Origin: an uncultured Gammaproteobacteria bacterium
GTDB lineage: Bacteria; Patescibacteriota; Patescibacteriia; Magasanikbacterales; UBA922
Direction: 5' to 3'
Assembly (NCBI GenBank): GCA_964612105.1
Contig: CAZTEU010000003.1
Location: 67,050 to 131,049, forward strand
DNA length: 64,000 nt
The position numbers and the translations under genes are program-made. Below the pieces are notes generated by a model that saw nothing but the letters and a program-made list of their open reading frames with translations, searched no databases and was not told the DNA's origin. Positions 40,578-62,193 of this stretch are shown here, one piece after another; the first letter of the stretch is position 1, and each line of letters opens with the position of its first letter.

Positions 40578-42293
40578 CTAGAAGAGATATATATTGAAAG
40601 CGTCTTTCCCTGTAGAGTCTTTTATTATCTCAATGTTGTGAGAAATCGACTCTATTCTCTCCTTAATTTTATTATGCGTATCATCTGATGAGTACTTGTA
40701 TTGGAAATCAAACTGTTCAATCTCCACTTTATTATTTTCATAATTCTCTGGACGTACAGCTGAGATGTAAATGAATGATTCAACGCCCTGATTTCTAAAG
40801 TATTCATCTAGCTTATTTCCAGTTATATTATAAAATTTTCTGTCTGTCATAATAGGCCACCCATCATAAATACTGTGCCTGTCTAACCCCCAAAGTCTAG
40901 CTAGTGTATTAATACGGTGATCGTATATAATCATCAGGTTTTTTGGTGTATATCCTGTATCCTTCTTGCTTTCAACTCGTTCTTTTTGTAATTTTGTCAA
41001 AAACTCATAGTTTGGTTGCCCAAAGAATGCTGGAACACTTTCCTTAAGGGTATCACCTATATAATTATTGAGCTGATTAAATCCATAATTTTGTGTTTCT
41101 ACTACTGTTCCAGCATAGGCTACATACTTACTTCCATATCTTTGTGTTAAGTGAAAACTATTAATAGAGAAAAGTAGTTCAACAAATATAAATAAAAATA
41201 GAAGAAATATACCAAGCTTTTTTTTCTTAGATACTATATATTCAAAAAACAGAGCAACTATAAATACTAACCAAGGAAGTGCAACGGTAACGAACCTATA
41301 TGTTGATCCTATTGGCAGAATAAATATATAAGTAGCTAAGAGTGATGAAAGAAGAAATATTGCAAACTTATTATTATTTTTTATTGAAAAGTAGCCCAGC
41401 AGTGAAGCAGAGACTACGGAAAGGAAGTTAAAAATCTGGCTGTTTGCATAATATAATACTGTAAAAAATCTTTTCGCTCGATCCATTACTGAGCCTACAT
41501 TATCTCTACCCAACCTAACTTTCCAGTTTGGAGTTTCTTGGTTTAATAATGCAGAAAATTGGAAGTCAAAATGTCCTATTAATTTGTATAATTGAATATT
41601 ATAAATCAATATTGGAAGAGTTATTGCAAAACTAATAAGAGAGCCTTTCCAGAACCATTTAATATTGTGGAATTTCTTTTTATAGACAAATGAGTATAGT
41701 AGCAATACAGGCACAATTATTCCTACCGTGTACTTAGTTAGTATCCCCAAACCAAGACTGGTCCCCCACCCAAACCAATACCATTTGTTTTTATTATCTA
41801 GTGCCTGTATCCAAAACCAAAGTATTAACAAAATAAAGAACAGTGCTGTACCATCTTGTATTCCCACTCTAGATACCCACACATGATACGACTGGATTGC
41901 TATAATAGACCCTGCAATTAGACCAAACCTGCTAGAGTGTAGTTTCTTACCTATTGCATAAACAAGATAGACAGATGCTATACCAGTGAGTACAGCTGGT
42001 AATCTAACTGCAAAAATAGTCTCACCAATTGCCTTTATACTGACATGTTCTATAAGAAAGAAAAGAATTGGATGATCATGATATGAGAGTCTCCCCCACC
42101 AAGGCACTGTTGACAACCACTCCCAAGGTGTGGTTTGATGAGTAGCCGCAACATAATCCATTAGTTCGACAGATCTTATTGCATATAGCACTTCGTCTGT
42201 ATAGCTATCATGAAAAGTTATATTAGCAAAGCGCAATATAGATGCGATAATCAATATTGAAAATAATATATATAGCGTGGTTCTTTTTCTCAT
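40578..42293 (-). CDS. GT-C polytopic membrane glycosyltransferase, ArnT/PMT-like.
   Basis: The first loop carries TDEVLYAIRSVELMD (compare ArnT DEARYAEISREM), then HDHPIL. About 13 TM helices plus a roughly 200-aa C-terminal domain. Confidence 0.6.
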   Translation of the reverse strand: MRKRTTLYILFSILIIASILRFANITFHDSYTDEVLYAIRSVELMDYVAATHQTTPWEWLSTVPWWGRLSYHDHPILFFLIEHVSIKAIGETIFAVRLPAVLTGIASVYLVYAIGKKLHSSRFGLIAGSIIAIQSYHVWVSRVGIQDGTALFFILLILWFWIQALDNKNKWYWFGWGTSLGLGILTKYTVGIIVPVLLLYSFVYKKKFHNIKWFWKGSLISFAITLPILIYNIQLYKLIGHFDFQFSALLNQETPNWKVRLGRDNVGSVMDRAKRFFTVLYYANSQIFNFLSVVSASLLGYFSIKNNNKFAIFLLSSLLATYIFILPIGSTYRFVTVALPWLVFIVALFFEYIVSKKKKLGIFLLFLFIFVELLFSINSFHLTQRYGSKYVAYAGTVVETQNYGFNQLNNYIGDTLKESVPAFFGQPNYEFLTKLQKERVESKKDTGYTPKNLMIIYDHRINTLARLWGLDRHSIYDGWPIMTDRKFYNITGNKLDEYFRNQGVESFIYISAVRPENYENNKVEIEQFDFQYKYSSDDTHNKIKERIESISHNIEIIKDSTGKDAFNIYLF

Positions 42294-42352: not shown

Positions 42353-43504
42353 ATGATAAAGACAAATAACAAAATATTATACGTAATTACACAAGGTGGT
42401 CCTTGGGGTGGTGCACAGAAATACGTATATACATTATCTAAAAACATACCCAATGGCATGGATGCTATTGTTGCTGTTGGAGAAAGCAACAGAAATCAAG
42501 ATCTACAAAAAAAATTAGTATCAAATAACATTGAGGTAATTAATCTTAAAAACCTGGAAAGAAATATTTCGATTGTTAAAGACTGGAAAACAATAGTGGA
42601 GCTTAGGAAATTATATAAAACTATAAAACCACACATTGTTCATCTTAACAGCTCTAAGGCTGGGGTTTTAGGAAGTGTTGCATCAATAGGACTTAAGGAT
42701 AAACCAAAAATTGTATATACAGTTCATGGGTGGGTTTTTAATGAACCAATGGGAAGTATTAGACAGATAATATATAAATTTGCAGAAAAAATTAGTGCTA
42801 CACTAAAGGACTCTATAATTACTTTGTCAGAATATGAAAAAAAGCAGGCTATTACTAAGTTGGGTATTAGTATAGAAAAAATACATAAAATACCAATCGG
42901 TGTTGCAAAACAAGACTATTTACCCAAAGATGAAGCTCGTTCAAAAATTATAAATACAGACTATAATCAGGATGAGGTTTTGATTGTTTCAATTGCAAAC
43001 GCTTTTAAGACAAAAGGATTAGACACTCTTATAAAGGCTACAGAAAAACTATTAACCAATAACATAAAAATCAGAGTGTTCATTATTGGTGATGGTCCTG
43101 AGCTTGCAAACCTTAAAAAATTATCTGCATCATTAGGTGTTAATAATTCAGTACACTTCTTAGGCTTTATAGAAAATGCATCAAACTTACTGATGGCTTT
43201 TGACCTGTTTGTTCTTCCATCAAAAAAAGAAGGGCTACCGTACGTAGCACTAGAAGCCAAGCAGGCGGGTGTGCCTATAATTACAACTGCAGTTGGTGGT
43301 TTACCAACTATTATAGAAAATAAAAAAAATGGCTTGTTAATTAAGCCAGGAAGCTCAGAGAATCTCGCAAATGCAATAAAATATGCATGCTCACATATGA
43401 ACGAAATGAAGAGTATGTCATCTACAGCAAAAGACGAATCTGAAAGTTATTCAGAACAAGATATGATTAGAAAAACTTATAATTTATACAATAAGCACCT
43501 CTAG
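42353..43504 (+). CDS. Glycosyltransferase family 4 (plus strand).
   Basis: N-terminal GGPWGGAQKYV and a C-terminal EGLPYVALEAKQAGVPIITTAVGGLP motif. Confidence 0.7.
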   Translation: MIKTNNKILYVITQGGPWGGAQKYVYTLSKNIPNGMDAIVAVGESNRNQDLQKKLVSNNIEVINLKNLERNISIVKDWKTIVELRKLYKTIKPHIVHLNSSKAGVLGSVASIGLKDKPKIVYTVHGWVFNEPMGSIRQIIYKFAEKISATLKDSIITLSEYEKKQAITKLGISIEKIHKIPIGVAKQDYLPKDEARSKIINTDYNQDEVLIVSIANAFKTKGLDTLIKATEKLLTNNIKIRVFIIGDGPELANLKKLSASLGVNNSVHFLGFIENASNLLMAFDLFVLPSKKEGLPYVALEAKQAGVPIITTAVGGLPTIIENKKNGLLIKPGSSENLANAIKYACSHMNEMKSMSSTAKDESESYSEQDMIRKTYNLYNKHL

Positions 43505-45516
43505 TTCTCAGTTGGTAGATATTCACCAACTATCTTTTTTCCTTCTTCATTAAACTTTACACCTTCATCCACAGCCCTCATTGTGGCTTCTTTAGCCAAG
43601 CCTGTCTGCCCCATCGTTTTATAGATTAATACGAGTCTCCACCAGCTCTCACTTATTTTTGGATTTAACTCTGTTGATTTTTCTATGGTGTTAATTGCCT
43701 CTTCTGCATTGTTTAACTGCATTTCAACACCAGCAAGAGTGTAGTAAAGCTGTTGTCTTTTTGGAGAATACTCTATTGCCTCCTCCATGGTTTTCTTTGC
43801 TTCTAGTAACATAGAAGGTTCTCTTGTAACACCAGTTATCATTTGTGAAAGTTGAGTCTGTTGTAAATGAATCCTAATATCACCGGGATGTAATCTTCTA
43901 TTATTATTCAATTCAGAATGAGCCAATCTAGCTAGTTTCACAGCTTTTTCACCATGACCATGAGTTACGTAATTTTTAAAGGTATTATTCATAGATCTTC
44001 CAAAGTCTATTCTCATGTCATCAATATGTGGAGTGTATATGCCTGTGGCATGTTCATATGCACTAACAACATCTTTGTTGTTGTATATTGACCTTATAAG
44101 ATCTAGAGTAGCCATATTAGCCCTAGCAGGGTACACATTTGTTATTAAGATAATACACCCGACACAAACCACAACCAATACTTGTACAAGTGAATCAGCA
44201 TGGAAACGAGTGTTTTCTGTTTCTTCTTTTTTGTTTATTAATGAGTTTATTAGTGCTAGAAAAAAGAAAAAGTAAATATATGATGTTGGATTTTCAAATA
44301 CAAACAATTGTTGAGTATAATGAAACACAAAATACCCTACAGCAGCTGCAAAAATATGTACATCTATTTTTTTTCTTACAAATGCACGCCATGCAAATAA
44401 AATTGGCACTACAAATAGTGCTAGATAAGCAAATAACCCTACTGTGCCTTGCACAGCGATTGCATTGATTGTTGCACTATGCGCATTGTCAAACCAAGTT
44501 TCAGTATAGCCAAATTTTAGCAGTTGGGGATTGTAATATTTATTAAAGGCATAATAGTAATTATTTGGACCCCATCCAAATACCGGACGCTCTTTCCAGG
44601 CATCCATTGCGATTGACCAAGCCATCAGACGTGGGTTGCTATTTTTATCAAGCTTAATATTTACAAGTCTGCCTACAGTTGGGATTTTTTGTACAAAACT
44701 GGAGCCTCTAAAGTAAAAAGAAGTTCCAAGCCCAAGAATTCCAACAATTAGTCCCGCAATAAAAATAGAACGTATAATACTATTTTTGTTAATGTTTTTA
44801 ACATATACCCAACCCATAGCTACCACCCCCAAGACAAATCCTATTAGTACCCCCCTGGTTCCACTTATTAAAAGACCAATAATTCCAATCAGGCCGCAGA
44901 TAATCGAATAATATTTCCAATTATTATTTTTCTCTTTTGCATATAGTAACCAACCAACCAGAGACAGAAATGCACCATATGCACCATAGTATATTGCATT
45001 TCCCAATGTAGCAGACACACGGTCAGAGCCTCTGTTGAGTAAGAACTCAGGACTAACTTTCTGTATCATTCCAATAATCATAACCATAGAACCAGCACCA
45101 AGAAATATCCTAAGTAAATATCTCCAGTCAGACCATTTCGTAAAAATAGAAGTCGCTACAAAGTAGTAGATCGCATAGTGACATATTGTAAAAAAACCTA
45201 ACATTCTCTCGTGATTGTCCCACAGGCTTTTGTAACTGTCTACACCAACTATAGTAGAGATCAAGAAACTTAGAAGATAAAAAATTACAGCAAGTGTAAT
45301 TGGTGTCTTCTTAATTGAGTATCTTTTTACGTCTCCCAAAAGTAGAAGAATATATACTCCAAGCATTATTAATACAACACTACGGAATATTAGTATCTTT
45401 GGAACTATGAAAGGGAAAATGAATTTGTCAGGAAGAATAATAAGAGGAATAAAGAAACTTAAAGCAATAGACCATTTTATTACTTGTTCTAATATTTTTC
45501 TCATAATTTTATTCAA
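43501..45516 (-). CDS. O-antigen ligase/polymerase-domain (Wzy_C) membrane protein fused to a C-terminal TPR domain.
   Basis: About 10 TM helices. GTRGVLIGFVLG and a FDNAHSATINAI loop are PF04932-like. The C-terminal roughly 200 aa are TPR-like repeats. Its stop overlaps the GT4 stop convergently by 4 bp. Confidence 0.5.
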   Translation of the reverse strand: MNKIMRKILEQVIKWSIALSFFIPLIILPDKFIFPFIVPKILIFRSVVLIMLGVYILLLLGDVKRYSIKKTPITLAVIFYLLSFLISTIVGVDSYKSLWDNHERMLGFFTICHYAIYYFVATSIFTKWSDWRYLLRIFLGAGSMVMIIGMIQKVSPEFLLNRGSDRVSATLGNAIYYGAYGAFLSLVGWLLYAKEKNNNWKYYSIICGLIGIIGLLISGTRGVLIGFVLGVVAMGWVYVKNINKNSIIRSIFIAGLIVGILGLGTSFYFRGSSFVQKIPTVGRLVNIKLDKNSNPRLMAWSIAMDAWKERPVFGWGPNNYYYAFNKYYNPQLLKFGYTETWFDNAHSATINAIAVQGTVGLFAYLALFVVPILFAWRAFVRKKIDVHIFAAAVGYFVFHYTQQLFVFENPTSYIYFFFFLALINSLINKKEETENTRFHADSLVQVLVVVCVGCIILITNVYPARANMATLDLIRSIYNNKDVVSAYEHATGIYTPHIDDMRIDFGRSMNNTFKNYVTHGHGEKAVKLARLAHSELNNNRRLHPGDIRIHLQQTQLSQMITGVTREPSMLLEAKKTMEEAIEYSPKRQQLYYTLAGVEMQLNNAEEAINTIEKSTELNPKISESWWRLVLIYKTMGQTGLAKEATMRAVDEGVKFNEEGKKIVGEYLPTEN

Positions 45517-46186
45517 TTATACTTCCCCACCTTTCTTGAAAAGCTTTGTTTTCTGGATATCTTTGTAGAAGTTCGCCTACAAATTCTTTGGTTTTTTCTA
45601 TTTGGTTTGTGTCTTCGTAATAACCTATAGCAGCCAATAATACATCTACATCTCTTTCTGTATTTTCTAGACCTTCAAGAAGCGTTTTTTCTGCGGAAAT
45701 ATTATTATCTAAATTATTTTTTTGTAATTTAGATAAGGTTATGTATAAGCTAGGATTAACAAGATTATTTTCAATGGCAAGATTGTAAAATTCTTCAGCT
45801 TTTACATAATTCTTTAGATTAACCCTGTATGTTTCAGCAATGTTTGTATAACCTAAAATATTTTGTGGATTAAGCACAATAGACTGCCTGTAAGCTAGTA
45901 TTGAATTGTCAAAATCACCAATCATGCTGTAAACATTTCCAACAGCAATCCATGATGTCCAGCTATCTGGAGTTTTTTCATATTTTTGCTTCGTGAGTTC
46001 TATATCATTCTCCATTCTTAGTACTATATCCTTGTCTATATCTTGAGGTATTTGTACATTATAGAACGGGTCATTAATTAACCTACTCATCTCATCAGAA
46101 TTCTTTTCCTTCAATAGATAAAATGCTGAGACTACAATCACTAGTAGAATAAGGATTATGGTTTTATTTCTTGTCTTTGGTTTCAT
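45509..46186 (-). CDS. TPR-repeat protein with an N-terminal membrane anchor.
   Basis: N-terminal hydrophobic helix, then TPR-like repeats (...AYRQSIVLNPQNILGY...). Confidence 0.6.
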   Translation of the reverse strand: MKPKTRNKTIILILLVIVVSAFYLLKEKNSDEMSRLINDPFYNVQIPQDIDKDIVLRMENDIELTKQKYEKTPDSWTSWIAVGNVYSMIGDFDNSILAYRQSIVLNPQNILGYTNIAETYRVNLKNYVKAEEFYNLAIENNLVNPSLYITLSKLQKNNLDNNISAEKTLLEGLENTERDVDVLLAAIGYYEDTNQIEKTKEFVGELLQRYPENKAFQERWGSIIE

Positions 46187-46238: not shown

Positions 46239-46272
46239 AACCCCCCTCTGGGCATACGCCTAAAGGGGGGTT
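46239..46272 (-). terminator. GC-rich hairpin terminator downstream of the giant surface-protein gene.
   Basis: 9-bp stem AACCCCCCT/AGGGGGGTT with a 16-nt loop. On the minus strand it is followed by a U-rich stretch (UGUGUUGUAAUGAUUUUUUU). The stem's GC content is in sharp contrast to the AT-rich genome. Confidence 0.45.
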
Positions 46273-46329: not shown

Positions 46330-49300
46330 CTAAAGGCTAACTACGCTTGCTGTAGATGAGGTTGAGTTAAGACCTGATACTAGATAACCATTTACCCAGT
46401 CTTCTGTTGTGGTAGCGTGTCCGCCAGCACTACGATCTGACCAAATAAAGTCATCATTCGCATCTGCGTCTACTACGGTGGTAGTATCCATTAGAGAGTC
46501 TGCTTCTATGTGTGCGGCAGCATCACCAGCCATAACTGTTGAGATTGAGTCTCCAGATGAGGCTCCGCTCACAACACCACGAAGTATGTATGTCTTTGTA
46601 GCTCCGTCAGCTACTGTTCTTTCCTTAATGGTACCATTTCCAACTTCTCCAGTTGTTTCGTTAATTGTAGCCTGAAGGTATGAGAAGTTTTGACCTTGCG
46701 CTAGGGTTTCAGTAAACAACTGTACCTCGTTGTTTGAATCAGTAACATCATATAGATCTACTGAAGCAACGGTTACACTTGTTGTTGTAATACCGAATAC
46801 AAACTTAGCCAAGCCGATGTCACCATCAGATGCAGTAACTTTGAACTTGTACAAGTCAACTGTACCATTTGACAATGTGCTTCCAACTGAAAGTTTTGTA
46901 ACTGTTGGAAGTGCTTGATACATGTAGTGAGTTAGTCCTGTAGGAGCACTTGCACCTATGACCTCAGTTGTTCCAGAACCTGATTGGGCACCTTTAGCTG
47001 TAATGTCGCCAGCATTGTTGATCTTAAGACCAAGTCTGTGACCACCAACTGTTACGGCCTGTTGTGTACCAATACTGGACAAGTCTGCCTTCAAGTGAAG
47101 TTTGTGACCAGATGTATTGTCAATATCAACAATAAATGCTCCATCATCAAATTCAATTAATGGCTTTGTACTTGTAGGCACTGTTGATCCAACAATTACA
47201 CCTGCATCATCCTCGAAGTATAGTCTTGTATAGTCTGAGAATGAAGAACTGCTTGTGTCTGTTACGTTCATTGTTAGATAGATCTTATCAAGCTCTACAT
47301 CTTCTGTTGAAGTTGCATAGAAGTTGAATGTTGCTAGCTCAACACCTTTAGTTCCAGCTGCGAACAATCTTGCAGATGGGTTTGAGGCATCAAGACCAAC
47401 TTCAACTGTACCACCAGCAGAACCAATTGTAAGTGTTTGTCCAGCTGCAGTATCTATAACTTCAGTAACTGTATCACCAGTTGTAACACCACTAGCTGTA
47501 ACCCAGTTAGTAGTTGATACAGCAAATGTGTGGTTTGAGTTAACTCCTGTTACAGCACCACCAGCAACATCTGCTCTAAATACAGCTTTTACTTTCTTAC
47601 CAGCTTTAATAGTAAACTGATCAGATCCACTTAGGTTGTAAGTGAATGTTTCTTCGCCGTTTGCAGTTGCGTTGGATCCACTGTTTGTTTCTCCAAGAGC
47701 TTCTAGTGTTCCTGAACTGTCAAAACTATCTCCATCTTTGTCAACAAAGATTCGGATGTTTTGCATGTCGATTGTCTTAGCTGTTGAACCTGTACTGTCA
47801 GTAACTTTCACCTGAGTAACTTTAATATCCTCTGATGAACCTGAAGCATCGAATAGTACGTGAGCCACATCAACATCGTTGGTGCCGGCTGCAAGTGTTC
47901 TTGCTGCAGGAGTTGTTAGTGTTGTAATACGCAATGCACCGGATTTAACGGTCAATGTATTAGCACTAATAACAGCTTGTGGTAGGGCGTAAGTTCCTAA
48001 AGTAATTGTTTCGCTACTGCTTGAACCTTCAGCATCAAAGTTTGATGTGTTAGCCATGTCAATAGCAAGTGTTACTTGATCATCAGCAGATGCATCACTA
48101 CTTATATTACCTTTAGCAATAACAACTGTATCACCAACTGGTAATGTGAATGAATCTGTAGATGTAGCATAACCAACTAATCCACCACTTGTAACCTCAG
48201 TCAAGTCTACACCACTTGTAAGTGCTTTTCCATCTTTGGTGTACAAGACAATATTATCATACTCATCTGGGTCACCTGTAACAGTTGTACCTTTAACAAC
48301 AATGGTGTTAACAGTAACAGGCTCTCCTTGAACTTTAAAGTTCCAAGAGCCAAGTTCTACACCAGATGCGTTGTCAGGAACATTTCCTGCTTGTACATCA
48401 TTTGTCTTAGACACTGTTATTTTTCCTTGTGAAACAGTAACTGTGTTAGTTAATTCGTCAGCACTGTTTGTTGGGGTTGCGTAGTATCCATACTTAAGAT
48501 CTTTTACAAGAAGATCTGTTGTACGACGTAGATCAAGATCTATTGTTCTTGTAGATCCATCCACGATGTCACCGTAAACTGAGAAGCTCTTTGTAGCTCC
48601 TTTTTTAATCATACAACTGTCACCACAACCTGATAGGTCGAAGGTTACATATTTGTCTTTCATCATACCTGTTGCAACTGTGTTGCTCTGGTATGTAAGT
48701 TTCCAGTTTTGTACGTCATCGTTGTCAGCTGATCCACCGTTGTACAATCTTAGTTGTTCTACTTGGAAGTCATTTGTTGCAACCTGCAAATCAAGATTTG
48801 CAAAGTTTACTCCAGTATCACCAATTTGCTCGGTTACTGTACCAACTTGTGCACCTTCACTCAATGTGGCTGTTCCTAGTACAACACTTGCATTTGTCTG
48901 AACTGCATTTCCAACTAGTGGAAGAGTTCCAACAACAGTTGAATCTGTTGTAACTGACTGAAGTGCCAACTTTGGATAGTTACCTCCTGCTAGACCAGAA
49001 GCCATATCAGCAACAAGTGTGTATGACTTTGTTGTTCCTGCAGGAATGACAATATCTTGACCGAAGTTTACAATACTGTCAGAGTTTAGAGTCTTTCCAA
49101 GTGTATCAACAAGAAGACCTTCATTATCTACCATGTTAATTTTACTGAAATCTCCGTCAATTGATGGAGATCCGTTGCGTTTTACTTGCAAAGAATCAAT
49201 TGTAACATCACCACCTGTAGCAGTGAAGTTAACCTTTGTGAATGCAACTCGTGCTGCATTCTTCACAGCAAAAGTTCCTGCTGGAGTGTCAGATGCAAGA

Positions 49301-50079
49301 GCAACTGTCAAAGTTCCTGTTGAACCTGAGCTTGGGCTACTTGATCCTGAACTTGCTCCACCAGCCATTTGTGATGGGTTGTTTGCAACACTAGCTGATG
49401 TGACTGTTTCGCTTGCCATTGAAACACTAGCGAATACGCCTGCAGAAACTTCGCGGACGTCACCACTTGCAACACTTGAAAGTGTTCCGTCAACTTCTTT
49501 AAGTTCCCCGTCTACAACTTCGTAGACTTTAGCGTCACCAGCTTTTGTAACAAGCATTCCGTTGTGAGGTTTTGACTCAGAAACTTCTGAACCAACTGAG
49601 TAGTTAGCATCAAACACATCTGGAAGGTCGCGGACAAGTTTTGCCCAACCGCTTCCGTAAAGTGCTGCTGCAACTGCCTCACTAGCAATCTTGTGTTTCA
49701 TGTTGTTAGGTCCAACTGCATACACGTTTGGTGAAATTACAGTTTTAACTAAACGAGATCCTGGACGGTAGTTTACACCACCACCACTTGGATAGTTATC
49801 AACACAAGTGTTATCAATTACTTGTACTCCAGAATAGTCTGTGTACCAAGTTTTGTATACCTCCGCATTTGGGAAGTACATACGTTTCATATCTGGGTTA
49901 ACCAGATACACTGCTGAATTGTTAGCAACTTTGAACAAGTCACCTGAATTCAGTGTTGGACAAGTAGCGGCATTTGCTACCAATGGAACTAGAGCTGCTA
50001 CACCCATGCTCCACATAATGGTAAGAACCACTACTGACCACGTAAACGCATCCTTTGAGATTCGTAATACGTTGCTCAT
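46330..50079 (-). CDS. Giant secreted/cell-surface protein of 1249 aa, Thr/Ser/Gly/Val-rich with tandem beta-rich modules. Candidate S-layer or adhesin glycoprotein.
   Basis: N-terminal signal/anchor (WSVVVLTIMWSMGVAALVPLVANAA), a roughly 200-aa N-terminal domain with 3 Cys, then over 1000 aa with no Cys, about 30% Ser+Thr and many N-x-S/T sites. It has its own promoter and terminator. Confidence 0.6.
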   Translation of the reverse strand: MSNVLRISKDAFTWSVVVLTIMWSMGVAALVPLVANAATCPTLNSGDLFKVANNSAVYLVNPDMKRMYFPNAEVYKTWYTDYSGVQVIDNTCVDNYPSGGGVNYRPGSRLVKTVISPNVYAVGPNNMKHKIASEAVAAALYGSGWAKLVRDLPDVFDANYSVGSEVSESKPHNGMLVTKAGDAKVYEVVDGELKEVDGTLSSVASGDVREVSAGVFASVSMASETVTSASVANNPSQMAGGASSGSSSPSSGSTGTLTVALASDTPAGTFAVKNAARVAFTKVNFTATGGDVTIDSLQVKRNGSPSIDGDFSKINMVDNEGLLVDTLGKTLNSDSIVNFGQDIVIPAGTTKSYTLVADMASGLAGGNYPKLALQSVTTDSTVVGTLPLVGNAVQTNASVVLGTATLSEGAQVGTVTEQIGDTGVNFANLDLQVATNDFQVEQLRLYNGGSADNDDVQNWKLTYQSNTVATGMMKDKYVTFDLSGCGDSCMIKKGATKSFSVYGDIVDGSTRTIDLDLRRTTDLLVKDLKYGYYATPTNSADELTNTVTVSQGKITVSKTNDVQAGNVPDNASGVELGSWNFKVQGEPVTVNTIVVKGTTVTGDPDEYDNIVLYTKDGKALTSGVDLTEVTSGGLVGYATSTDSFTLPVGDTVVIAKGNISSDASADDQVTLAIDMANTSNFDAEGSSSSETITLGTYALPQAVISANTLTVKSGALRITTLTTPAARTLAAGTNDVDVAHVLFDASGSSEDIKVTQVKVTDSTGSTAKTIDMQNIRIFVDKDGDSFDSSGTLEALGETNSGSNATANGEETFTYNLSGSDQFTIKAGKKVKAVFRADVAGGAVTGVNSNHTFAVSTTNWVTASGVTTGDTVTEVIDTAAGQTLTIGSAGGTVEVGLDASNPSARLFAAGTKGVELATFNFYATSTEDVELDKIYLTMNVTDTSSSSFSDYTRLYFEDDAGVIVGSTVPTSTKPLIEFDDGAFIVDIDNTSGHKLHLKADLSSIGTQQAVTVGGHRLGLKINNAGDITAKGAQSGSGTTEVIGASAPTGLTHYMYQALPTVTKLSVGSTLSNGTVDLYKFKVTASDGDIGLAKFVFGITTTSVTVASVDLYDVTDSNNEVQLFTETLAQGQNFSYLQATINETTGEVGNGTIKERTVADGATKTYILRGVVSGASSGDSISTVMAGDAAAHIEADSLMDTTTVVDADANDDFIWSDRSAGGHATTTEDWVNGYLVSGLNSTSSTASVVSL

Positions 50080-50114
50080 AATTTATATCTTTGTCATTTA
50101 CCTAGCGCGCGTAC

Positions 50115-50143
50115 TTTATAAAGATGAGTACGGTCTATGTAAA
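50115..50143 (-). promoter_or_regulatory. Sigma70-type promoter of the giant surface-protein gene.
   Basis: Minus strand reads TTTACA, 17 nt, TATAAA, about 30-nt leader, ATG at 50079. Confidence 0.4.
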
Positions 50144-50160
50144 TAACTATTATCTACAGA

Positions 50161-50310
50161 CATGTAACGACTCGTATCGAGCCTCGACCTTGGGCTACAT
50201 GGTTGCCTCGACACACGAGGCCTGCTCCCATGTACTGTATGGCATTCTACCCTGAACCACTCTCGACCTCTACTACCAGAGGTTCAGGGCATTAGCCATA
50301 CAATATCCTG
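50161..50310. other. GC-enriched, highly structured intergenic element; candidate structured ncRNA. Its identity is unresolved.
   Basis: Local GC is about 50% against the roughly 33% background. A nested long hairpin spans 50236-50302, built from a perfect 9-bp stem CCCTGAACC/GGTTCAGGG inside an 8-bp stem TGTATGGC/GCCATACA. A second hairpin GCCTCG-ACACA-CGAGGC lies at 50205-50221. It lies upstream of the giant-gene promoter and outside any ORF. Confidence 0.2.
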
Positions 50311-50390
50311 GGAATGAATATTGTTGTGCTCTCCTTTATTGACAAGCACAGTTCTATCCCGACAAGTCGAGAAAGGGCTGTGTTTACCAA

Positions 50391-51692
50391 CTATTCTATG
50401 TCACTTTCATTATTTTCGCTCTCTACTGGAGCTTGTACAGGGTCTACCACTTCTTCCAATTCATTATTTATTTCTTTGGTCTTCTTAATAGCATCCTTTA
50501 CCTCAACAACAGCCTGAGCTGTCTCAGTATTAACCTCTTGAGCTTCTTGTGCTTTATGAATAGCATCAAGAAGATTGTTGTTCTCAACCAGCTCTTGAGC
50601 CTGCTGTATAATCTCCCCCGCTCTCTCTACTGTTTCATCGACCTTATCTACAACCTCCACTATCTTATCTTTTATATCTTCGAGATTCTCAGCTTCTTTG
50701 ACTTGATCTTTTTCTGAGTCAGTTGCCATTGTTGATGATGCCAAAAGAGTCTCTTTTAAATCCTCTAATACTTCTTCATTTATTTCACTTTCACTTGTAG
50801 TTTTCTCCACAGCCTCAGCGTCTGGCTTTATTTCATCTTTAATAGTGTCCTTTACTTCCTGTACTGATACAGACAATTCTGCAATTGTTTCAGCAACAAG
50901 CTCTGCAACATCCTCATTGGATGACTCACTGTCTTCTTTTTCCACATCCTCATCTAATTGTTTAACAACTTTTTCTATAACATCAAGCTCCGCAGCCTTC
51001 ACCAGTGATGTTGCCTCAGCAACTTCTTTCACCAAAGAACCTGTATCTGTCTCGTCATTACCCCCTTCTATTTCTTTAGTAACCTCAATTAATTCTTTTT
51101 TAATTTCCTGAGTAGCTTTTGTAAGATCTTTAGCTACGCTGACAGCTTCAGAGAGGCTGGTATTATTTACTTCTTTCGCGCTTTCCTTCGCAGACTCTAT
51201 AGATTTTTTGAGCTTTACTACAGTCTTCTGTGCTCGCTCTGCCTTGTCTTCGCCCTCGTTATTTTCAACTATTTTTTTTGTCTCTTCAGATCTACGTGAT
51301 GCAAATTCAAGATGAAGCTTAGTTTCTACAACCTTATCTCGTGAAACTGTAGCAAGTGCAACTTGAGTTTTTTCTGTAGCAATCTTTACTCCGTACAAAA
51401 CCTCGCCTGGTAAACTATCATATGAAGCATTTACCCCAACAATCCAACCACCAACCGTCATAATACTAATCATGATCATTGCCATAGCCGGACGAGCAGC
51501 ATGTGCAATAGATTCAGGAATAAACCAAGATACTAATTCTTTTGCTGGAACAGACCTCTTGGACTCAGTTACATTATTAGTTATTTGTCTCAAAAGACGG
51601 TTACGAGTGTTATCAACCCAAACATGGTCGGGTTTTAACCGGCCATTATAATCTTTCAAAGATTTAAGTTGTTCTATGAGTTGTTTACTCAT
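50391..51692 (-). CDS. Membrane-anchored acidic coiled-coil protein; putative anti-sigma factor partner (DUF5667-like architecture).
   Basis: About 65-aa cytoplasmic N-terminus, a single TM helix (AMAMIMISIMTVGGWIVGV), then about 340 aa of extremely E/K/D-rich helical sequence. It overlaps the sigma-factor gene by 8 bp. Confidence 0.45.
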   Translation of the reverse strand: MSKQLIEQLKSLKDYNGRLKPDHVWVDNTRNRLLRQITNNVTESKRSVPAKELVSWFIPESIAHAARPAMAMIMISIMTVGGWIVGVNASYDSLPGEVLYGVKIATEKTQVALATVSRDKVVETKLHLEFASRRSEETKKIVENNEGEDKAERAQKTVVKLKKSIESAKESAKEVNNTSLSEAVSVAKDLTKATQEIKKELIEVTKEIEGGNDETDTGSLVKEVAEATSLVKAAELDVIEKVVKQLDEDVEKEDSESSNEDVAELVAETIAELSVSVQEVKDTIKDEIKPDAEAVEKTTSESEINEEVLEDLKETLLASSTMATDSEKDQVKEAENLEDIKDKIVEVVDKVDETVERAGEIIQQAQELVENNNLLDAIHKAQEAQEVNTETAQAVVEVKDAIKKTKEINNELEEVVDPVQAPVESENNESDIE

Positions 51693-52266
51693 GTGAGTCT
51701 TGTGTGATTCTTTTTAATACTTTTAGTGCTCTGTGTAATGTAACTCGCACATTTGAACCAGACTTTTCAGTTATGTGAGCAATCTCAGATATAGACAAGT
51801 CATCCACATACCTGAGCACAATTACCTCTTGGTACTCATTTTTTAGCTTCTTAATCTGCTGAAGTAGAGCTTGTGTATTTTGATGTAGCTCTATCTCATT
51901 TATTAGAGTATTTTCACGAGCGTACTCTTTTACTTGATCCAGACTACACTCTTTGGTCTTGGCACGTTTTCTATAAACATCCACAACAGCATTACGCGCA
52001 ATTCGGTAGACTAAGCCACTAAAGCTTCTTGTTCTTTTGTTTGAATGATCTATTAAATAGTTCCACGTTTTGAGGAAGACTTCGCTTGTAATATCTTCAG
52101 CCTCTTCTCTATTTGATAGCTTCAGATAAACAAACCTATAAATTTTATCAACATACTTATCGTACAGCTCTGCGAAGGCATCCGGATCTCTCTTAGCTTG
52201 AGCACGATATATAAGTATTTGTTCACTAATATTTTTCCTCATAATAGAAGACGCAGAAGTTACCAA
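51685..52266 (-). CDS. RNA polymerase sigma-70-family (ECF-type) sigma factor.
   Basis: Region 2 (FAELYDKYVDKIYRFVYLKLSNREEAEDITSEVFLKTWNY) and a region-4 HTH (LSISEIAHITEKSGSNVRVTLHRALKVLK). The true start is probably the ATG at 52242 (MRKNISEQ); the track start is a TTG. Confidence 0.75.
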   Translation of the reverse strand: MVTSASSIMRKNISEQILIYRAQAKRDPDAFAELYDKYVDKIYRFVYLKLSNREEAEDITSEVFLKTWNYLIDHSNKRTRSFSGLVYRIARNAVVDVYRKRAKTKECSLDQVKEYARENTLINEIELHQNTQALLQQIKKLKNEYQEVIVLRYVDDLSISEIAHITEKSGSNVRVTLHRALKVLKRITQDSHE

Positions 52267-59444: not shown

Positions 59445-60559
59445 CTACTTTTAATTATCTTGTTATAGATATTCTCATAACTCTCAACCATTTTATCCAT
59501 TCCAAACTCCTTCCCAGCTTTCACACGTGCTCTATTTGCAATGCCTTTTCCAATTTCTGGATGTTCAAAAATATTTTTTAGAGCACTCTTTATTTCCTTT
59601 ACACTTCTAGCCTTAACAAGAAATCCATTTTTTTCATTATCTACCATCTCAGGAATACCTCCTGTTCTTGAGGCTATAATCAAACGCTCAGAAGCCATAC
59701 CTTCCATCACAACCCTACCTAGTCCTTCCCAGTGAGAAGGCACAAGTAGAACATCTGTTTTGCTGTATACGTCTTGTACATTTTTTGTACTCTTATGAAT
59801 ATTTACTCTTCCAGACAATCCGAAAGATAAAATTTTCTTTTCTATCTTTTTTTTGTCCTCTCCATCCCCCACTATATCTAATTTCCATGGATAATCTTTA
59901 AGTTGTTTCAATGCTTTTAGGGCTGTTATGTGGCCTTTTTGAGAACTCAATCTACCTACAATTAATAACCTCAAGTCTTTCTCAAAGTTTGGGATACTTT
60001 TTATAGATAAAAACTTTGATAAATCAATTCCATACCTAATCACGTCTATATTCTTACTAATTCCATATGATTTCTTCATGAAAGATTGTATAGCCTTCGA
60101 TGGGCAAGAATATGCTTTACTGTAATTCTTTATATGTCGTTTTATTATTTTTTTTATAAACCCCTCACCAACATTTATATTATGCTCTGTAGTAACAACA
60201 GGTATTCCGACTTTGTAAGCAGAAACTCTTGCCCAAAAATCCCCACCAAATAAGTTTGTATGGACTATGTCTGGTTTTATTCTCTTAAATACCCTTTCTA
60301 AGTCATTAAACAGGTGTAAACTCACCTTGCCTTTTTTTGGGACAACAACAATATCTGCATTTTTAACTTCTGACCCAAGTGGATTATTGTTAGACAAGGT
60401 AATAATTGTAGAACAAAATTTCTTCCTGTCCAGATTATTAACCAAATCAACAACAAAACGCTCTGCACCTCCAAAACTAAGTGTTGGTATTACGTGTACA
60501 ATATGTATTTTTTTATTCATATATTTTTCTGGCTTGCAGAACAGAAGCAGACGCAACAC
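59441..60559 (-). CDS. Glycosyltransferase family 4.
   Basis: IVHVIPTLSFGGAERFV N-terminus and PSHWEGLGRVVMEGMASERLIIASRTGGIPE. The likely start is MNKKIHIV near 60520. Confidence 0.7.
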   Translation of the reverse strand: MLRLLLFCKPEKYMNKKIHIVHVIPTLSFGGAERFVVDLVNNLDRKKFCSTIITLSNNNPLGSEVKNADIVVVPKKGKVSLHLFNDLERVFKRIKPDIVHTNLFGGDFWARVSAYKVGIPVVTTEHNINVGEGFIKKIIKRHIKNYSKAYSCPSKAIQSFMKKSYGISKNIDVIRYGIDLSKFLSIKSIPNFEKDLRLLIVGRLSSQKGHITALKALKQLKDYPWKLDIVGDGEDKKKIEKKILSFGLSGRVNIHKSTKNVQDVYSKTDVLLVPSHWEGLGRVVMEGMASERLIIASRTGGIPEMVDNEKNGFLVKARSVKEIKSALKNIFEHPEIGKGIANRARVKAGKEFGMDKMVESYENIYNKIIKSR

Positions 60560-61988
60560 CCAAAGGTAACCACATCACACTGTTAAAATATGAAGTGTTA
60601 AATAGTTGGAAAACCACAGCTCCCACAACAGTTAGGAGCATTATTGAGACATACCTATCTCTCCTATATTTATATAGAAGTAAAATATTCCAAATTAGGA
60701 AACTAACAAAAAGTATTAAACCAACATAGCCCTCTTCTAAAATTATTTTTTGTATAAAACCATGGCCGTCTAATGGGTCACCGTAATCCAAACGATATAT
60801 ATAGCTGTCACCAAGCACTGTTAGAAAAGTACCTGGACCAAAACCTTCTACTGGCCTAAGTGTTGAATAAAAAAATGCTGCTTTTGTTGCCCCAACTCTT
60901 GCAGATGTAGAACTTTTAACAATACTTGTTGAGAAAAATATGAATAATAATAGAGCTAGAGGTATAACAAACAGACCAATTGAAAGAACCATTCTAGGAA
61001 GTTGGCCAATTAGTTTCTTTGCGTGTGACCTATAAATAAGAATAAATAATATTGTTTGTATTACTAATGCAATCCACGCTGCTCTGGAGAAAGTAAGCAG
61101 AGTAGATATAATCATAAGAACAGAACCATAAGCAAATATCTGTTTGTGTAGCTTTGTGTGAGACCTAAGTGCTAGCATTACACCAATTGGAATTATTGCA
61201 ACCAAAACTTCCGCTATTTGATTATGATTATATCCAAGTGGAGAAAACCCCTTAATCCCAAAAGGTACTACACGCATCCACCCAATATGATCCACAAGTA
61301 TTAGTGATAGTAGTCCAAAAATTGCTATTGCCACACCTGTAAAAAACCAGATGTACAAGGTTCTGCGAAGTATTTTGCGTGTCCTAACAATGAGAATTGG
61401 AGCAATCCAATATGCCAAGAAAACAAACAAAATCGGACGTAGCAAGTACTTCATACTAGCGAAAGTAAGACCTTCGTATGCACCTAGTGAAGAGTACATC
61501 CCAAAACAAAGAAAAAGTACGTATATAGCTAGACCAATAAATATTTTTGGAAGAATTTTTCTTATCTGCTTATTGTAAGCACCAAAAATAGTGCTTAATG
61601 TTATACTGACTAACAACAGAATAGATATAAAGTCCACAAGTGGAGCGTTAATACTTCCAAGTATCCAAACGTCTTTTAGCTGTTCATATCTAGAGAAATC
61701 AACTAGCCAACCATGAAATAGTCCCGAAAATGCAACTGCATAGAAGCACCAATCCTGATGCAAAATACATATAGTTAAAACACCAAGAAGCACAGGCACA
61801 ATTACTGCTAATGGATATATATGCCATAAAGCTATTGTTACAAATACTAACAAAAGACTTGTTAGTAGTGTTATACGAAAAGAATATCCAGTTGAGTTGG
61901 TAGGTTTAAGAAAATTGGTTTTTTTCATATCAGTTTCGATGTGAGTATAGCTTAATTTCAGTGTTTTTTCAAATAAAAAAACTGCCAT
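60513..61988 (-). CDS. O-antigen ligase/polymerase-like (Wzy_C) polytopic membrane protein.
   Basis: At least 10 TM helices and an FSRAAWIALVIQ motif typical of the Wzy_C loop. Confidence 0.4.
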   Translation of the reverse strand: MAVFLFEKTLKLSYTHIETDMKKTNFLKPTNSTGYSFRITLLTSLLLVFVTIALWHIYPLAVIVPVLLGVLTICILHQDWCFYAVAFSGLFHGWLVDFSRYEQLKDVWILGSINAPLVDFISILLLVSITLSTIFGAYNKQIRKILPKIFIGLAIYVLFLCFGMYSSLGAYEGLTFASMKYLLRPILFVFLAYWIAPILIVRTRKILRRTLYIWFFTGVAIAIFGLLSLILVDHIGWMRVVPFGIKGFSPLGYNHNQIAEVLVAIIPIGVMLALRSHTKLHKQIFAYGSVLMIISTLLTFSRAAWIALVIQTILFILIYRSHAKKLIGQLPRMVLSIGLFVIPLALLLFIFFSTSIVKSSTSARVGATKAAFFYSTLRPVEGFGPGTFLTVLGDSYIYRLDYGDPLDGHGFIQKIILEEGYVGLILFVSFLIWNILLLYKYRRDRYVSIMLLTVVGAVVFQLFNTSYFNSVMWLPLGVASASVLQARKIYE

Positions 61989-62193
61989 ATTTGGCGGTTT
62001 TTTATTTAGGTTTTACCCCGTGTCACTGATCACTTTTTGTAAAATGGTCAATGTTCGGGGCCCGGTCGCATGGATTGCATGCGACCGGGCGGAAACTAGA
62101 GCACTATCGTCCCGAAGGACATTAGATTTCATAGTACCCCCTCTGCGTATTCATTCGCGGAGTGGAGGGGGATTTTCCCGAGAGAAAACAAAG

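What the first reader, a model, noticed from the sequence alone, without database searches (positions are those of the whole stretch)
43501..45516. Wzy_C (O-antigen ligase) domain fused to a TPR domain; candidate PglL-like O-oligosaccharyltransferase or glycan ligase
PglL/PilO protein O-oligosaccharyltransferases belong to the Wzy_C superfamily. Here a Wzy_C-like 10-TM core (GTRGVLIG...FDNAHSATIN) carries a roughly 200-aa C-terminal TPR array, which is a protein-recognition module. It is followed by a separate anchored TPR protein (45509-46186) and then the giant Ser/Thr-rich protein. A second Wzy_C-like protein lies at 60513-61988. This offers an en-bloc glycan transfer route alongside the stepwise PMT-like route.
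Basis: partly seen in the sequence, partly recalled or inferred. Interest (0 to 1): 0.55.

Follow-up and report, generated by a model that had tools for sequence, protein, structure and literature searches.

The report
WaaL-like glycan ligase with TPR tail
This gene from a tiny, uncultured Patescibacteria (CPR) bacterium encodes a membrane enzyme of the O-antigen-ligase type with a protein-binding TPR tail facing outward, and it usually sits next to the gene for a giant surface protein, so it most likely attaches ready-made sugar chains to that protein.

Summary
Window 43501-45516 (-) encodes a 671-aa protein; the start is more likely ATG 45504, giving 667 aa. It has a significant Wzy_C domain and a C-terminal TPR-like solenoid.

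- **Fold:** AlphaFold (pLDDT 91, pTM 0.90) gives a WaaL-like 12-TM core, a 13th TM helix and ten tail helices. WaaL (7TPG) is the only membrane-protein fold match.
- **Catalytic residues:** the family keeps the equivalents of E. coli WaaL R215/R288/H338 (here R221/R296/H346).
- **Topology:** the tail lies on the same, extracytoplasmic side as the catalytic loop.
- **Family:** 4,119 clusters at E<=1e-30, conserved in Patescibacteria, mainly Magasanikbacteria.
- **Synteny:** in 36 of 50 species genomes with enough flank, the upstream genes are ECF sigma, DUF5667 and a ~1250-aa secreted multi-Ig-like protein. The cassette recurs in three other classes. PMT_2 genes are not conserved neighbours (5 of 52).
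- **Closest known system:** the S-layer O-oligosaccharyltransferases of Gram-positive bacteria, WsfB (Wzy_C plus TPR) and WsaB with its separate TPR protein WsaA.
- **Limits:** PglL-specific Pfam models do not match. No priming transferase or flippase lies in the window. Function is inferred, not shown.

It is a new member of a known kind, of moderate interest.

The parts
43501..45516 (-). Wzy_C-TPR enzyme. It has a 12-TM WaaL-like core, a catalytic extracytoplasmic loop (residues 269-347 with R270, R296, H346), a 13th TM helix (442-478) and a TPR-like tail of ten helices (483-663). The likely true start is ATG 45504 (667 aa).
   Evidence: ORF; Pfam Wzy_C E=9e-20 and TPR_8 E=1e-10; AF2 pLDDT 91, pTM 0.90; Foldseek WaaL 7tpg_B E=1.2e-6, TM 0.64; residue map to WaaL; family alignment A1.
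45509..46186 (-). Small TPR protein (225 aa) anchored by one N-terminal TM helix, candidate adaptor or chaperone. It is analogous in position to WsaA upstream of wsaB.
   Evidence: Pfam TPR_1/TPR_8/TPR_17. The sequence has a basic N-terminus followed by a hydrophobic helix. It is not a copy of the enzyme tail. A small TPR gene is present in L004, L005, L008, L009 and L010. By tblastn it is found in 12 of the 13 loci whose giant protein is >=40% identical to the window's, and in none of the others.
46330..50079 (-). Giant secreted surface protein (1249 aa), the proposed acceptor. It has a signal peptide, an N-terminal alpha/beta module (~45-235), a disordered Ser-rich linker (240-253), then about ten all-beta Ig-like domains.
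   Evidence: No Pfam or NCBIfam family. Composition is T 12%, S 10%, only 4 Cys. Homologues of ~1250 aa occur in Magasanikbacteria, Portnoybacteria, Buchananbacteria and Komeilibacteria. AF2 pLDDT 84. Foldseek finds Ig-like strings such as PrgB, Bap, FnBPA and SdrC. The linker is conserved as a low-complexity feature.
46243..46272 (-). Terminator-like GC-rich hairpin with a U-rich tail just after the giant gene. It separates the giant gene from the TPR and ligase genes.
   Evidence: Sequence; fold -26.4 kcal/mol, z=-4.3.
50391..51692 (-). DUF5667 protein (433 aa) with one TM segment, overlapping the sigma gene. It is a candidate anti-sigma or envelope-sensor partner.
   Evidence: Pfam DUF5667 E=4e-8; sequence; conserved next to the sigma gene in 34 of 50 loci and in distant classes.
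51685..52266 (-). ECF-type sigma-70 factor at the head of the conserved cassette.
   Evidence: Pfam Sigma70_r2/r4_2/ECF. The best sigma-70-like promoter of the region lies upstream at 52434-52406. It is conserved in 33 of 50 loci.
42353..43504 (+). Convergently oriented GT4 glycosyltransferase (383 aa) directly after the enzyme gene, a frequent neighbour.
   Evidence: Pfam Glycos_transf_1/Glyco_transf_4. The same gene sits in the same position and orientation in 23 of 61 loci and in Portnoybacteria L008.
60513..61988 (-). Second, TPR-less Wzy_C-like protein (491 aa) in a separate GT4 operon. It could be a polymerase or a second ligase and is not part of the conserved cassette.
   Evidence: Pfam Wzy_C E=3.4e-7, 30.6 bits, under the 31.7 cut-off. 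NCBIfam PEP_O_lig_1 2e-8 and RfaL 1e-6, both far below their cut-offs. It keeps the R221/R296/H346 equivalents and is 17% identical to the target.

Best explanation
The gene encodes an en-bloc glycan transferase of the WaaL/O-oligosaccharyltransferase type that works on the outer face of the cytoplasmic membrane of a monoderm Patescibacteria cell.

Proposed mechanism:
1. A polyprenyl-diphosphate-linked glycan is built in the cytoplasm by the many neighbouring GT4/GT2 enzymes and sugar-nucleotide enzymes, then flipped outward.
2. It binds in the WaaL-like core, where R221, R270 and R296 hold the diphosphate and H346 acts as the base.
3. The TPR-like tail, held over the active site by a 13th TM helix, carries a ladder of invariant polar residues (H497/D500/D504, H543/D546/R548, R587/Q588, R627). 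It presents the acceptor.
4. The most likely acceptor is Ser/Thr (or Tyr) of the giant secreted multi-Ig-like surface protein encoded just upstream, possibly its disordered Ser-rich linker. The small membrane-anchored TPR protein would act as adaptor.

Shown: fold, topology logic, conserved catalytic residues, family breadth, synteny. Inferred: the lipid-linked donor, the protein acceptor, and the roles of the tail and the small TPR protein.
For: - Wzy_C domain E=9e-20. AF2 pLDDT 91 and pTM 0.90, which implies a fixed core-tail arrangement. WaaL 7TPG is the only membrane-protein fold match, prob 1.0, TM 0.64.
- Residue register to WaaL: R221=R191, R270=R242, R296=R265, H346=H313 in 7TPG, and R215/R288/H338 in E. 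coli WaaL. R221, R296 and H346 are universal across all cassette paralogues, with E/D at position 408.
- The conserved His is required in Wzy_C O-OTases and ligases (PMC9829042; PglS H324A is inactive, PMC12800693).
- Four TM helices separate the catalytic loop from the tail. K+R is 20 of 76 residues in the predicted inside loops against 7 of 49 outside.
- PglS and PglL, but not pilin-tail-specific TfpM, have a large C-terminal periplasmic domain proposed to recognise internal sequons.
- The tail's polar invariants are specific to the ~675-aa orthogroup, as expected of a specificity module.
- Synteny: a giant-protein homologue lies upstream on the same strand in 36 of 50 species loci, and 5 more loci have a different ~1000-1300-aa secreted ORF there. 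The cassette is kept in Portnoy-, Komeili- and Buchananbacteria.
- The giant protein is secreted and built of Ig-like domains, like surface adhesins.
- Precedent: WsfB (Wzy_C plus TPR) and WsaA (TPR) plus WsaB (Wzy_C) in S-layer glycosylation loci (PMC2943079).
- Relatives have a Bac_transf priming enzyme (L008), a Wzx-like flippase (L007) or Wzm/Wzt-like genes (L082) next to the enzyme.
- Patescibacteria lack LPS (own knowledge), so lipid A-core cannot be the acceptor.
Against: - There is no experimental evidence for glycosylation of the giant protein or for any activity of this family.
- PglL-specific Pfam models (PF15864, PF13425) do not match, and no curated NCBIfam model reaches its cut-off.
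- The 64-kb window has no priming phosphoglycosyltransferase, Wzx flippase or ABC exporter among ORFs of 150 aa or more.
- About 9 of 50 loci have no giant ORF upstream, so the adjacency is frequent but not obligatory. It could simply reflect co-location of envelope genes.
- Profile comparison with E. coli WaaL is not significant by score (E=0.096).
- TPR domains also scaffold polysaccharide export, so the tail could bind glycan rather than protein.
Confidence: 0.5

Rival explanations
1. It is a ligase that transfers the lipid-linked glycan to a non-protein acceptor of the monoderm envelope, such as a glycolipid anchor or peptidoglycan, making a lipoglycan or wall polysaccharide. The TPR tail would bind the glycan chain or a partner, and the giant protein would merely be encoded nearby or bind that polymer.
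For: The WaaL-like fold and catalytic residues are the same as for a lipid acceptor. Sugar-nucleotide or glycan genes lie downstream in 48 of 52 loci, whereas the giant gene is absent upstream in about 9 of 50. No LytR-CpsA-Psr ligase was seen among the window ORFs scanned. The giant protein's N-terminal alpha/beta module could be a polymer-binding anchor.
Against: WaaL itself needs no 13th TM helix or large extracytoplasmic domain. Such C-terminal domains are a feature of the protein-directed PglS and PglL. The orthogroup-specific polar ladder, and the small TPR protein that tracks the giant-protein subtype, point to a protein partner. The giant gene and the enzyme stay adjacent across four candidate classes.
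Confidence: 0.2
2. It is a Wzy-type polymerase that elongates a surface polysaccharide from lipid-linked repeat units. The TPR tail would act as a scaffold or chain-length or export module, as TPR domains do in PelB, BcsC, PgaA and AlgK systems.
For: Pfam Wzy_C covers polymerases as well as ligases. There is a weak TIGR04370 repeat-unit polymerase hit (E=8e-4, 18.5 bits against a cut-off of 40). Several genomes carry two Wzy_C genes in tandem, which could be a polymerase-ligase pair.
Against: Comparison with the two E. coli Wzy-type polymerases finds nothing (34 and 23 aligned columns), while WaaL aligns over 241 columns in catalytic register. The ligase/O-OTase histidine and arginines are invariant. 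No Wzz or Wzc co-polymerase was found in the window. Conservation of 43-51% identity across 200 or more species is unlike the usual hypervariability of Wzy (own knowledge).
Confidence: 0.15
3. It is mainly a non-catalytic membrane anchor or assembly factor. The TPR tail would tether or chaperone the giant surface protein, and the WaaL-like core would serve only as a membrane platform.
For: Tight synteny with the giant protein, and TPR domains are classical protein-protein modules.
Against: The catalytic Arg/Arg/His set and other loop residues (D343, E339, G314, G316) are invariant over a very large family, which argues for retained catalysis. Glycan-synthesis genes are the most constant neighbours.
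Confidence: 0.05

Closest known systems
WsfB (Paenibacillus alvei), and WsaB with WsaA (Geobacillus stearothermophilus): predicted S-layer protein O-oligosaccharyltransferases of Gram-positive S-layer glycosylation (slg) loci
   Same: Monoderm host. A Wzy_C membrane enzyme with a C-terminal TPR (WsfB), or with a separate small TPR protein encoded just upstream (WsaA/WsaB); both arrangements occur together here. The locus is packed with glycosyltransferases and sugar-nucleotide genes and lies beside the surface-protein gene. Even an asparagine-synthase homologue (wsfA) has a counterpart at 24449-26323 (PMC2943079).
   Different: The putative acceptor here is an uncharacterised 1249-aa multi-Ig-like protein, not a proven S-layer protein. 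The cassette is headed by an ECF sigma/DUF5667 pair. The host is a CPR bacterium.
PglL (Neisseria) and PglS (Acinetobacter): general O-linking oligosaccharyltransferases
   Same: Wzy_C domain with an essential His. About 13 TM helices plus a sizeable C-terminal periplasmic domain over the active site, proposed to recognise internal sequons. An acidic residue after the catalytic His (PglL E404, PglS E379) may correspond to the conserved E/D408 here.
   Different: PglL-specific Pfam models PF15864 and PF13425 do not match. The C-terminal domain here is a five-repeat TPR solenoid of about 200 aa. The hosts are diderm Proteobacteria with pilin or periplasmic acceptors.
WaaL O-antigen ligase (Cupriavidus metallidurans 7TPG; E. 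coli K-12 WaaL)
   Same: Best and only membrane-protein structural match. Same arrangement of nine TM helices, a large outer loop, then three TM helices. The Arg/Arg/Arg/His set aligns residue for residue.
   Different: WaaL ends after the 12-TM core seen in the 7TPG match and has no 13th TM helix or TPR domain. Its acceptor, lipid A-core, does not exist in Patescibacteria (own knowledge). Identity is about 17%.
TMTC1-4 and bacterial PMT_2-TPR fusions; OGT
   Same: A glycosyltransferase joined to a TPR array that binds the protein acceptor. The tail matches the OGT TPR in profile and fold searches. The TMTC comparison rests on own knowledge.
   Different: These have different catalytic folds (GT-C PMT type or GT-B) and transfer single sugars, not en-bloc glycans.

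Membership tests
Wzy_C superfamily (Pfam PF04932; WaaL, O-OTases, some Wzy) | Significant match to the PF04932 model above the gathering score | tested here: met
   E=9.2e-20, 71.4 bits against a cut-off of 31.7, residues 209-365.
WaaL-type ligase / O-OTase fold | 12-TM core with a large extracytoplasmic loop between TM9 and TM10, structurally similar to solved WaaL | tested here: met
   AF2 shows nine helices before and three after the 269-347 loop, plus a 13th. Foldseek top hit is 7tpg_B, E=1.2e-6, prob 1.0, TMt 0.64.
WaaL-type ligase / O-OTase fold | Conserved Arg residues and catalytic His in the outer loops (E. coli WaaL R215, R288, H338) | tested here: met
   R221, R296 and H346 align with these residues. 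They are invariant or nearly invariant in 68 family members and universal in 13 cassette paralogues. That these residues are essential is taken from the literature and own knowledge.
O-linking oligosaccharyltransferases (PglL/PglS type) | Additional TM helix and a large C-terminal domain on the periplasmic or outer side | tested here: met
   TM13 (442-478) plus the 483-663 tail. An even number of TM helices separates the tail from the catalytic loop, and the positive-inside count is 20/76 against 7/49. This is a prediction only.
PglL family sensu stricto | Match to the PglL-specific Pfam models PF15864 (PglL_A) and/or PF13425 (O-antigen_lig) | tested here: not met
   Neither appears among the hits at E<=0.1.
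O-linking oligosaccharyltransferases (any) | Demonstrated transfer of a lipid-linked glycan to Ser/Thr/Tyr of a protein | not testable with these tools
   Needs glycoproteomics or reconstitution. The only indirect support is synteny with a secreted protein.
S-layer glycosylation (slg) O-OTase system, WsfB / WsaA-WsaB type | A Wzy_C enzyme with a fused or adjacent TPR protein, in a glycan-synthesis locus next to the surface-layer protein gene, in a monoderm | tested here: met
   Architecture and neighbourhood; description of the family in PMC2943079. That the giant protein forms an S-layer is not shown.
S-layer glycosylation (slg) O-OTase system, WsfB / WsaA-WsaB type | Sequence homology to WsfB or WsaB beyond the shared Wzy_C domain | not tested
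Wzy O-antigen / repeat-unit polymerases | Similarity to characterised Wzy polymerases or curated polymerase models; presence of a co-polymerase (Wzz/Wzc) | tested here: not met
   TIGR04370 scores only 18.5 bits against a cut-off of 40. hhalign against E. coli WzyE and WbbH gives 34 and 23 trivial columns. No Wzz or Wzc was found among the scanned window ORFs. Wzy enzymes are very diverse, so this does not exclude polymerase activity.
Tetratricopeptide-repeat domain | Pfam TPR matches and a helical-hairpin solenoid fold | tested here: met
   TPR_8 41.3 bits (cut-off 25.7) and TPR_19 27.5 bits (cut-off 25). Ten helices at 483-663. Foldseek and profile hits to CTPR, OGT, MamA and PEX5 TPR domains. 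Only the last two repeats are canonical by sequence.

The most novel reading that the evidence does not exclude
The conserved cassette (ECF sigma, DUF5667, giant multi-Ig protein, anchored TPR protein, Wzy_C-TPR enzyme or enzymes) may be the core surface-coat system of a large part of the Patescibacteria. The giant protein would be the so far unidentified S-layer or coat protein seen on CPR cells. The Wzy_C-TPR enzyme would not merely decorate it but covalently join it to a lipid- or wall-linked glycan, making this a sortase- and SLH-independent anchoring mechanism. Expression would be tuned by an envelope- or host-contact-sensing sigma/anti-sigma pair and a conserved structured 5' leader.
Probability: 0.12. 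Interest if true: 0.75.

Novelty: new member of a known kind. Interest (0 to 1): 0.5.

Why it matters
The envelope of CPR/Patescibacteria is almost uncharacterised at the molecular level, yet it is the interface through which these episymbionts attach to hosts.

This analysis turns a generic 'O-antigen ligase family protein' annotation, odd in bacteria without LPS, into a specific and testable proposal. It names a dedicated en-bloc glycosylation enzyme with an outward-facing TPR acceptor module, genetically tied to one giant secreted protein and to an ECF sigma unit.

It nominates a concrete candidate for the major surface protein of Magasanikbacteria and related classes, and for its glycosylation machinery. 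It gives catalytic and acceptor-module residues to mutate.

It also extends the Gram-positive S-layer O-OTase paradigm (WsfB, WsaA/WsaB) to a deeply divergent radiation. Such enzymes are of practical interest too, as O-OTases for glycoconjugate engineering.

Tried and rejected
- The PglL-specific signatures PF15864 and PF13425 give no hit, so the 'PglL-like' family label is dropped.
- NCBIfam gives only weak TPR hits and one sub-threshold polymerase hit.
- phmmer with the TM core alone (residues 1-464) against the PDB returned nothing, probably because of bias filtering. Residues 1-560 recovered WaaL.
- The WaaL structure paper could not be read by DOI or PMC id, and a residue-number text search was useless. 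The essentiality of the WaaL residues therefore rests on secondary citations and own knowledge.
- hhalign of the family profile against single E. coli sequences gives non-significant scores for all three. Only the extent and register of the alignments are informative.
- The small TPR protein as a duplicate of the enzyme tail is rejected (E=0.9).
- The 'bicarbonate transporter (IctB)' label seen on one homologue (P0062) is rejected as superfamily annotation spill-over.
- The GC-rich window end (62-64 kb) is not rRNA. Rfam finds nothing, and it encodes a Dicty_CTDC-repeat ORF.
- Literature searches for Patescibacteria with S-layer, glycosylation or O-antigen ligase found no description of this cassette. 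The 'WsfB' search mostly returned unrelated acronyms.
- The promoter scan is at chance level, 37 found against 35 expected.
- A specific S-layer fold match for the giant protein was not found; only generic Ig-like strings matched.


Full report
**1. Observation**

Window 43501-45516 (minus strand) is an uninterrupted 671-codon ORF. Pfam gives Wzy_C (PF04932) at E=9.2e-20 over residues 209-365, and TPR_8/TPR_19 over 572-628. The homologue consensus and the identical database protein P0001 (667 aa) start at the fifth codon, so the real start is probably ATG 45504.
- a 225-aa TPR protein with one N-terminal anchor helix (45509-46186);
- a 1249-aa protein with a signal peptide and 22% Ser+Thr (46330-50079);
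- PMT_2 genes;
- a second, weaker Wzy_C-like protein at 60513-61988.

The window is about 34% GC. Its proteins match Candidatus Magasanikbacteria / Patescibacteria.

**2. Structure, catalytic residues and topology**

An AlphaFold model built on 68 family members is confident (pLDDT 91, pTM 0.90). It has:
- nine TM helices;
- a large loop (269-347) with short helices;
- three more TM helices;
- a short basic loop;
- a 37-residue 13th helix (442-478);
- ten further helices (483-663).

Foldseek against the PDB returns WaaL (7TPG) as the top hit and the only membrane-protein hit (E=1.2e-6, prob 1.0, TM 0.64 on the target). All other hits are TPR proteins, including the substrate-binding TPR of OGT (profile search).

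| Residue here | 7TPG WaaL | E. coli K-12 WaaL | Shared motif |
|---|---|---|---|
| R221 | R191 | R215 | GTRG |
| R270 | R242 | not mapped | none noted |
| R296 | R265 | R288 | RLxxW |
| H346 | H313 | H338 | AH |

The comparison with E. coli WaaL is weak by score but extends over 241 columns. The polymerases WzyE and WbbH give only 34 and 23 trivial columns.

R270, R296 and H346 are invariant, and R221 nearly so, in the 68-sequence alignment. R221, R296 and H346 are universal in 13 cassette-linked paralogues as divergent as 17-27% identity, together with an acidic residue at 408 in the TM11-TM12 outer loop. The conserved His is the residue whose mutation inactivates Wzy_C-type O-OTases.

Four TM helices lie between the catalytic loop and the tail, so the tail is on the same, outer side. 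Lys+Arg density is 20 of 76 residues in the predicted inner loops and 7 of 49 in the outer loops.

**3. The tail**

Only the last two repeats are canonical TPRs by sequence, but the fold is a five-hairpin solenoid. It carries invariant polar residues at roughly one-repeat spacing, mostly at helix starts: P496-H497-D500-D504, H543-P544-D546-R548, R587-Q588 and R627. These are invariant in the ~675-aa orthogroup but not in the longer tandem paralogues. That is the behaviour expected of an acceptor-specificity module rather than of a generic scaffold. The high pTM implies that the tail is docked on the core rather than floppy.

**4. Family and neighbourhood**

The family is very large. There are 48,515 hits at E<=1e-3 and 4,119 representative clusters at E<=1e-30, and nearly all of the 150 listed match through the tail. 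At least 205 species-representative genomes carry a close relative, and the best 80 are Magasanikbacteria or other Patescibacteria. Pairwise identity is 43-51% over the full length, which is unusually high for Wzy or WaaL-type proteins.

The key new result is synteny. In individually inspected genomes the order is ECF sigma, DUF5667 protein, giant ~1220-1280-aa protein, optional small TPR protein, one or two Wzy_C(-TPR) genes, then variable sugar genes.

| Neighbour (tblastn) | Loci with it | Loci with enough flank |
|---|---|---|
| Giant-protein homologue upstream, same strand | 36 | 50 |
| DUF5667 protein | 34 | 50 |
| ECF sigma | 33 | 50 |
| Epimerase/dehydratase downstream | 48 | 52 |
| Convergent GT4 directly downstream | 23 | 61 |
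| PMT_2 | 5 | 52 |

Of the 14 exceptions, five have a different 1000-1300-aa secreted ORF in the same place. About nine have none.

I then started from distant homologues of the giant protein (31-34% identity) in Portnoybacteria, Komeilibacteria and Buchananbacteria. The same cassette reappears, including the small TPR gene and one or two Wzy_C(-TPR) genes. In L008 a Bac_transf priming enzyme is also present.

The small TPR protein is not a copy of the tail. By tblastn it is detected in 12 of the 13 loci whose giant protein is at least 40% identical to the window's, and in none of the others.

**5. The giant protein**

It has no Pfam or NCBIfam family and only 'hypothetical' homologues. The AlphaFold model (pLDDT 84) shows:
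- a signal peptide;
- an N-terminal alpha/beta module;
- a disordered Ser-rich linker (240-253);
- about ten beta-sandwich domains.

Fold matches are generic Ig-like strings, the bacterial ones being surface adhesins (PrgB, Bap, FnBPA, SdrC). The linker is conserved as a low-complexity feature: median 24 aa, 70% S/T/G/A/P, and 33% S/T against 23% for the whole protein. Its sequence is hypervariable and a few homologues have acidic linkers.

The gene is bracketed by a strongly structured leader of about 200 nt (z=-5.3) and a terminator-like hairpin (z=-4.3), so it looks like its own transcription unit.

**6. Mechanism proposed**

A polyprenyl-diphosphate-linked glycan is made by the surrounding GT4, GT2 and sugar-nucleotide enzymes and exported. 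It is then transferred en bloc by the WaaL-like core (Arg residues on the diphosphate, His346 as base) to hydroxyl residues of the giant surface protein as it emerges. The TPR tail presents the acceptor and the small anchored TPR protein may assist.

- **Shown:** fold, conserved residues, topology logic, family size, synteny.
- **Inferred:** donor, acceptor, and the roles of the two TPR modules.

Patescibacteria have no LPS (own knowledge), so the annotated 'O-antigen ligase' function cannot be literal.

**7. Weak points**

- The window has no priming transferase, flippase or ABC exporter, although relatives have them beside the enzyme.
- The giant gene is absent upstream in roughly a fifth of loci.
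- TPRs also serve polysaccharide export.
- Nothing has been shown experimentally.

The rivals are a ligase to a lipid or wall acceptor (0.2), a Wzy-type polymerase (0.15) and a non-catalytic anchor (0.05).

**8. Comparison with known systems**

The closest described analogues are the S-layer glycosylation loci of Gram-positive bacteria. WsfB combines Wzy_C with a C-terminal TPR. WsaB lacks the TPR but follows a small TPR protein, WsaA. Both sit in glycan clusters by the S-layer gene (PMC2943079).

PglS and PglL share the extra C-terminal periplasmic domain thought to read internal sequons, but the PglL-specific Pfam models do not match here. WaaL is the structural template but lacks the 13th helix and the tail.

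I found no description of the Patescibacteria cassette in the searchable literature.

**9. Verdict**

It is wrong in family label (not PglL) and in treating the PMT route as part of the system.

It is a new member of a known kind, carrying a new and conserved genomic context in an understudied radiation. Interest is moderate (0.5).

Noticed in passing
window 50150-50345 (-), within the 50080-50390 intergenic leader of the giant gene: A GC-rich, strongly structured RNA-like leader (MFE -73.3 kcal/mol, z=-5.3) with no Rfam family. Parts of it are conserved at the nucleotide level directly upstream of the giant gene in two other genomes (L005/L034 and L025), whose proteins are only ~45% identical. 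It could be a conserved 5' UTR element that stabilises or regulates the mRNA.
   Followed up: partly
window 46243-46272 (-): A terminator-like hairpin (CCCCCCUUUAGGCGUAUGCCCAGAGGGGGG plus a U-rich tail; -26.4 kcal/mol, z=-4.3) right after the giant gene. The consensus scanner missed it because of its long loop.
   Followed up: yes
window 62194-63888 (-), and composition of 62001-64000: The last 2 kb of the window is 57% GC, against ~34% elsewhere. It encodes a 564-aa ORF with five Dicty_CTDC (Cys/Thr-rich) repeats (E=6e-30). It is not rRNA. It may be a repeat-driven composition anomaly or foreign DNA.
   Followed up: no
window 50391-52266 (-), and HTH_17/DUF11 genes at about 52.3-54.9 kb: An overlapping ECF sigma gene and DUF5667 gene (one TM segment, very acidic coiled-coil-like tail) head the cassette in most genomes. 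A small HTH_17 gene and a 617-aa DUF11/CLIPPER protein on the opposite strand also recur. DUF5667 may be an anti-sigma or envelope sensor.
   Followed up: partly
window 21161-22648, 27049-28473, 28477-29811, 37887-39548, 40578-42293 (all -): There are five PMT_2-type GT-C glycosyltransferases in one 64-kb window. A 232-aa GT2 at 29815-30513 looks like a polyprenyl-phosphate sugar synthase next to two of them. This is an unusually rich set of lipid-monosaccharide-dependent transferases, but it is not conserved with the Wzy_C-TPR gene (5 of 52 loci).
   Followed up: partly
window 24449-26323 (-): An asparagine synthase (glutamine-hydrolysing) homologue sits inside the glycan cluster. It parallels wsfA in the P. 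alvei S-layer glycosylation locus and is probably a sugar amidotransferase.
   Followed up: no
L005 5836-8004, L006 5123-7357, L008 12415-16535, L009 16634-19744, L010 11975-17349: Many relatives carry two Wzy_C(-TPR) genes in the cassette, 21-27% identical to the window's enzyme. Both copies keep the R/R/H residues but have different tail residues. This is reminiscent of Acinetobacter strains with two O-OTases (own knowledge). The window genome has only one in the cassette.
   Followed up: partly
window 8380-10143 (-): A 587-aa ORF in the middle of the sugar-nucleotide operon has no Pfam family at E<=0.01.
   Followed up: no
loci L015, L023, L024, L026, L030 and others (record titles): Many GTDB representative genomes that carry this Patescibacteria-type cassette are titled 'uncultured Gammaproteobacteria bacterium', and one is titled 'Candidatus Udaeobacter'. 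These are almost certainly mislabelled bulk-binned MAG records.
   Followed up: no
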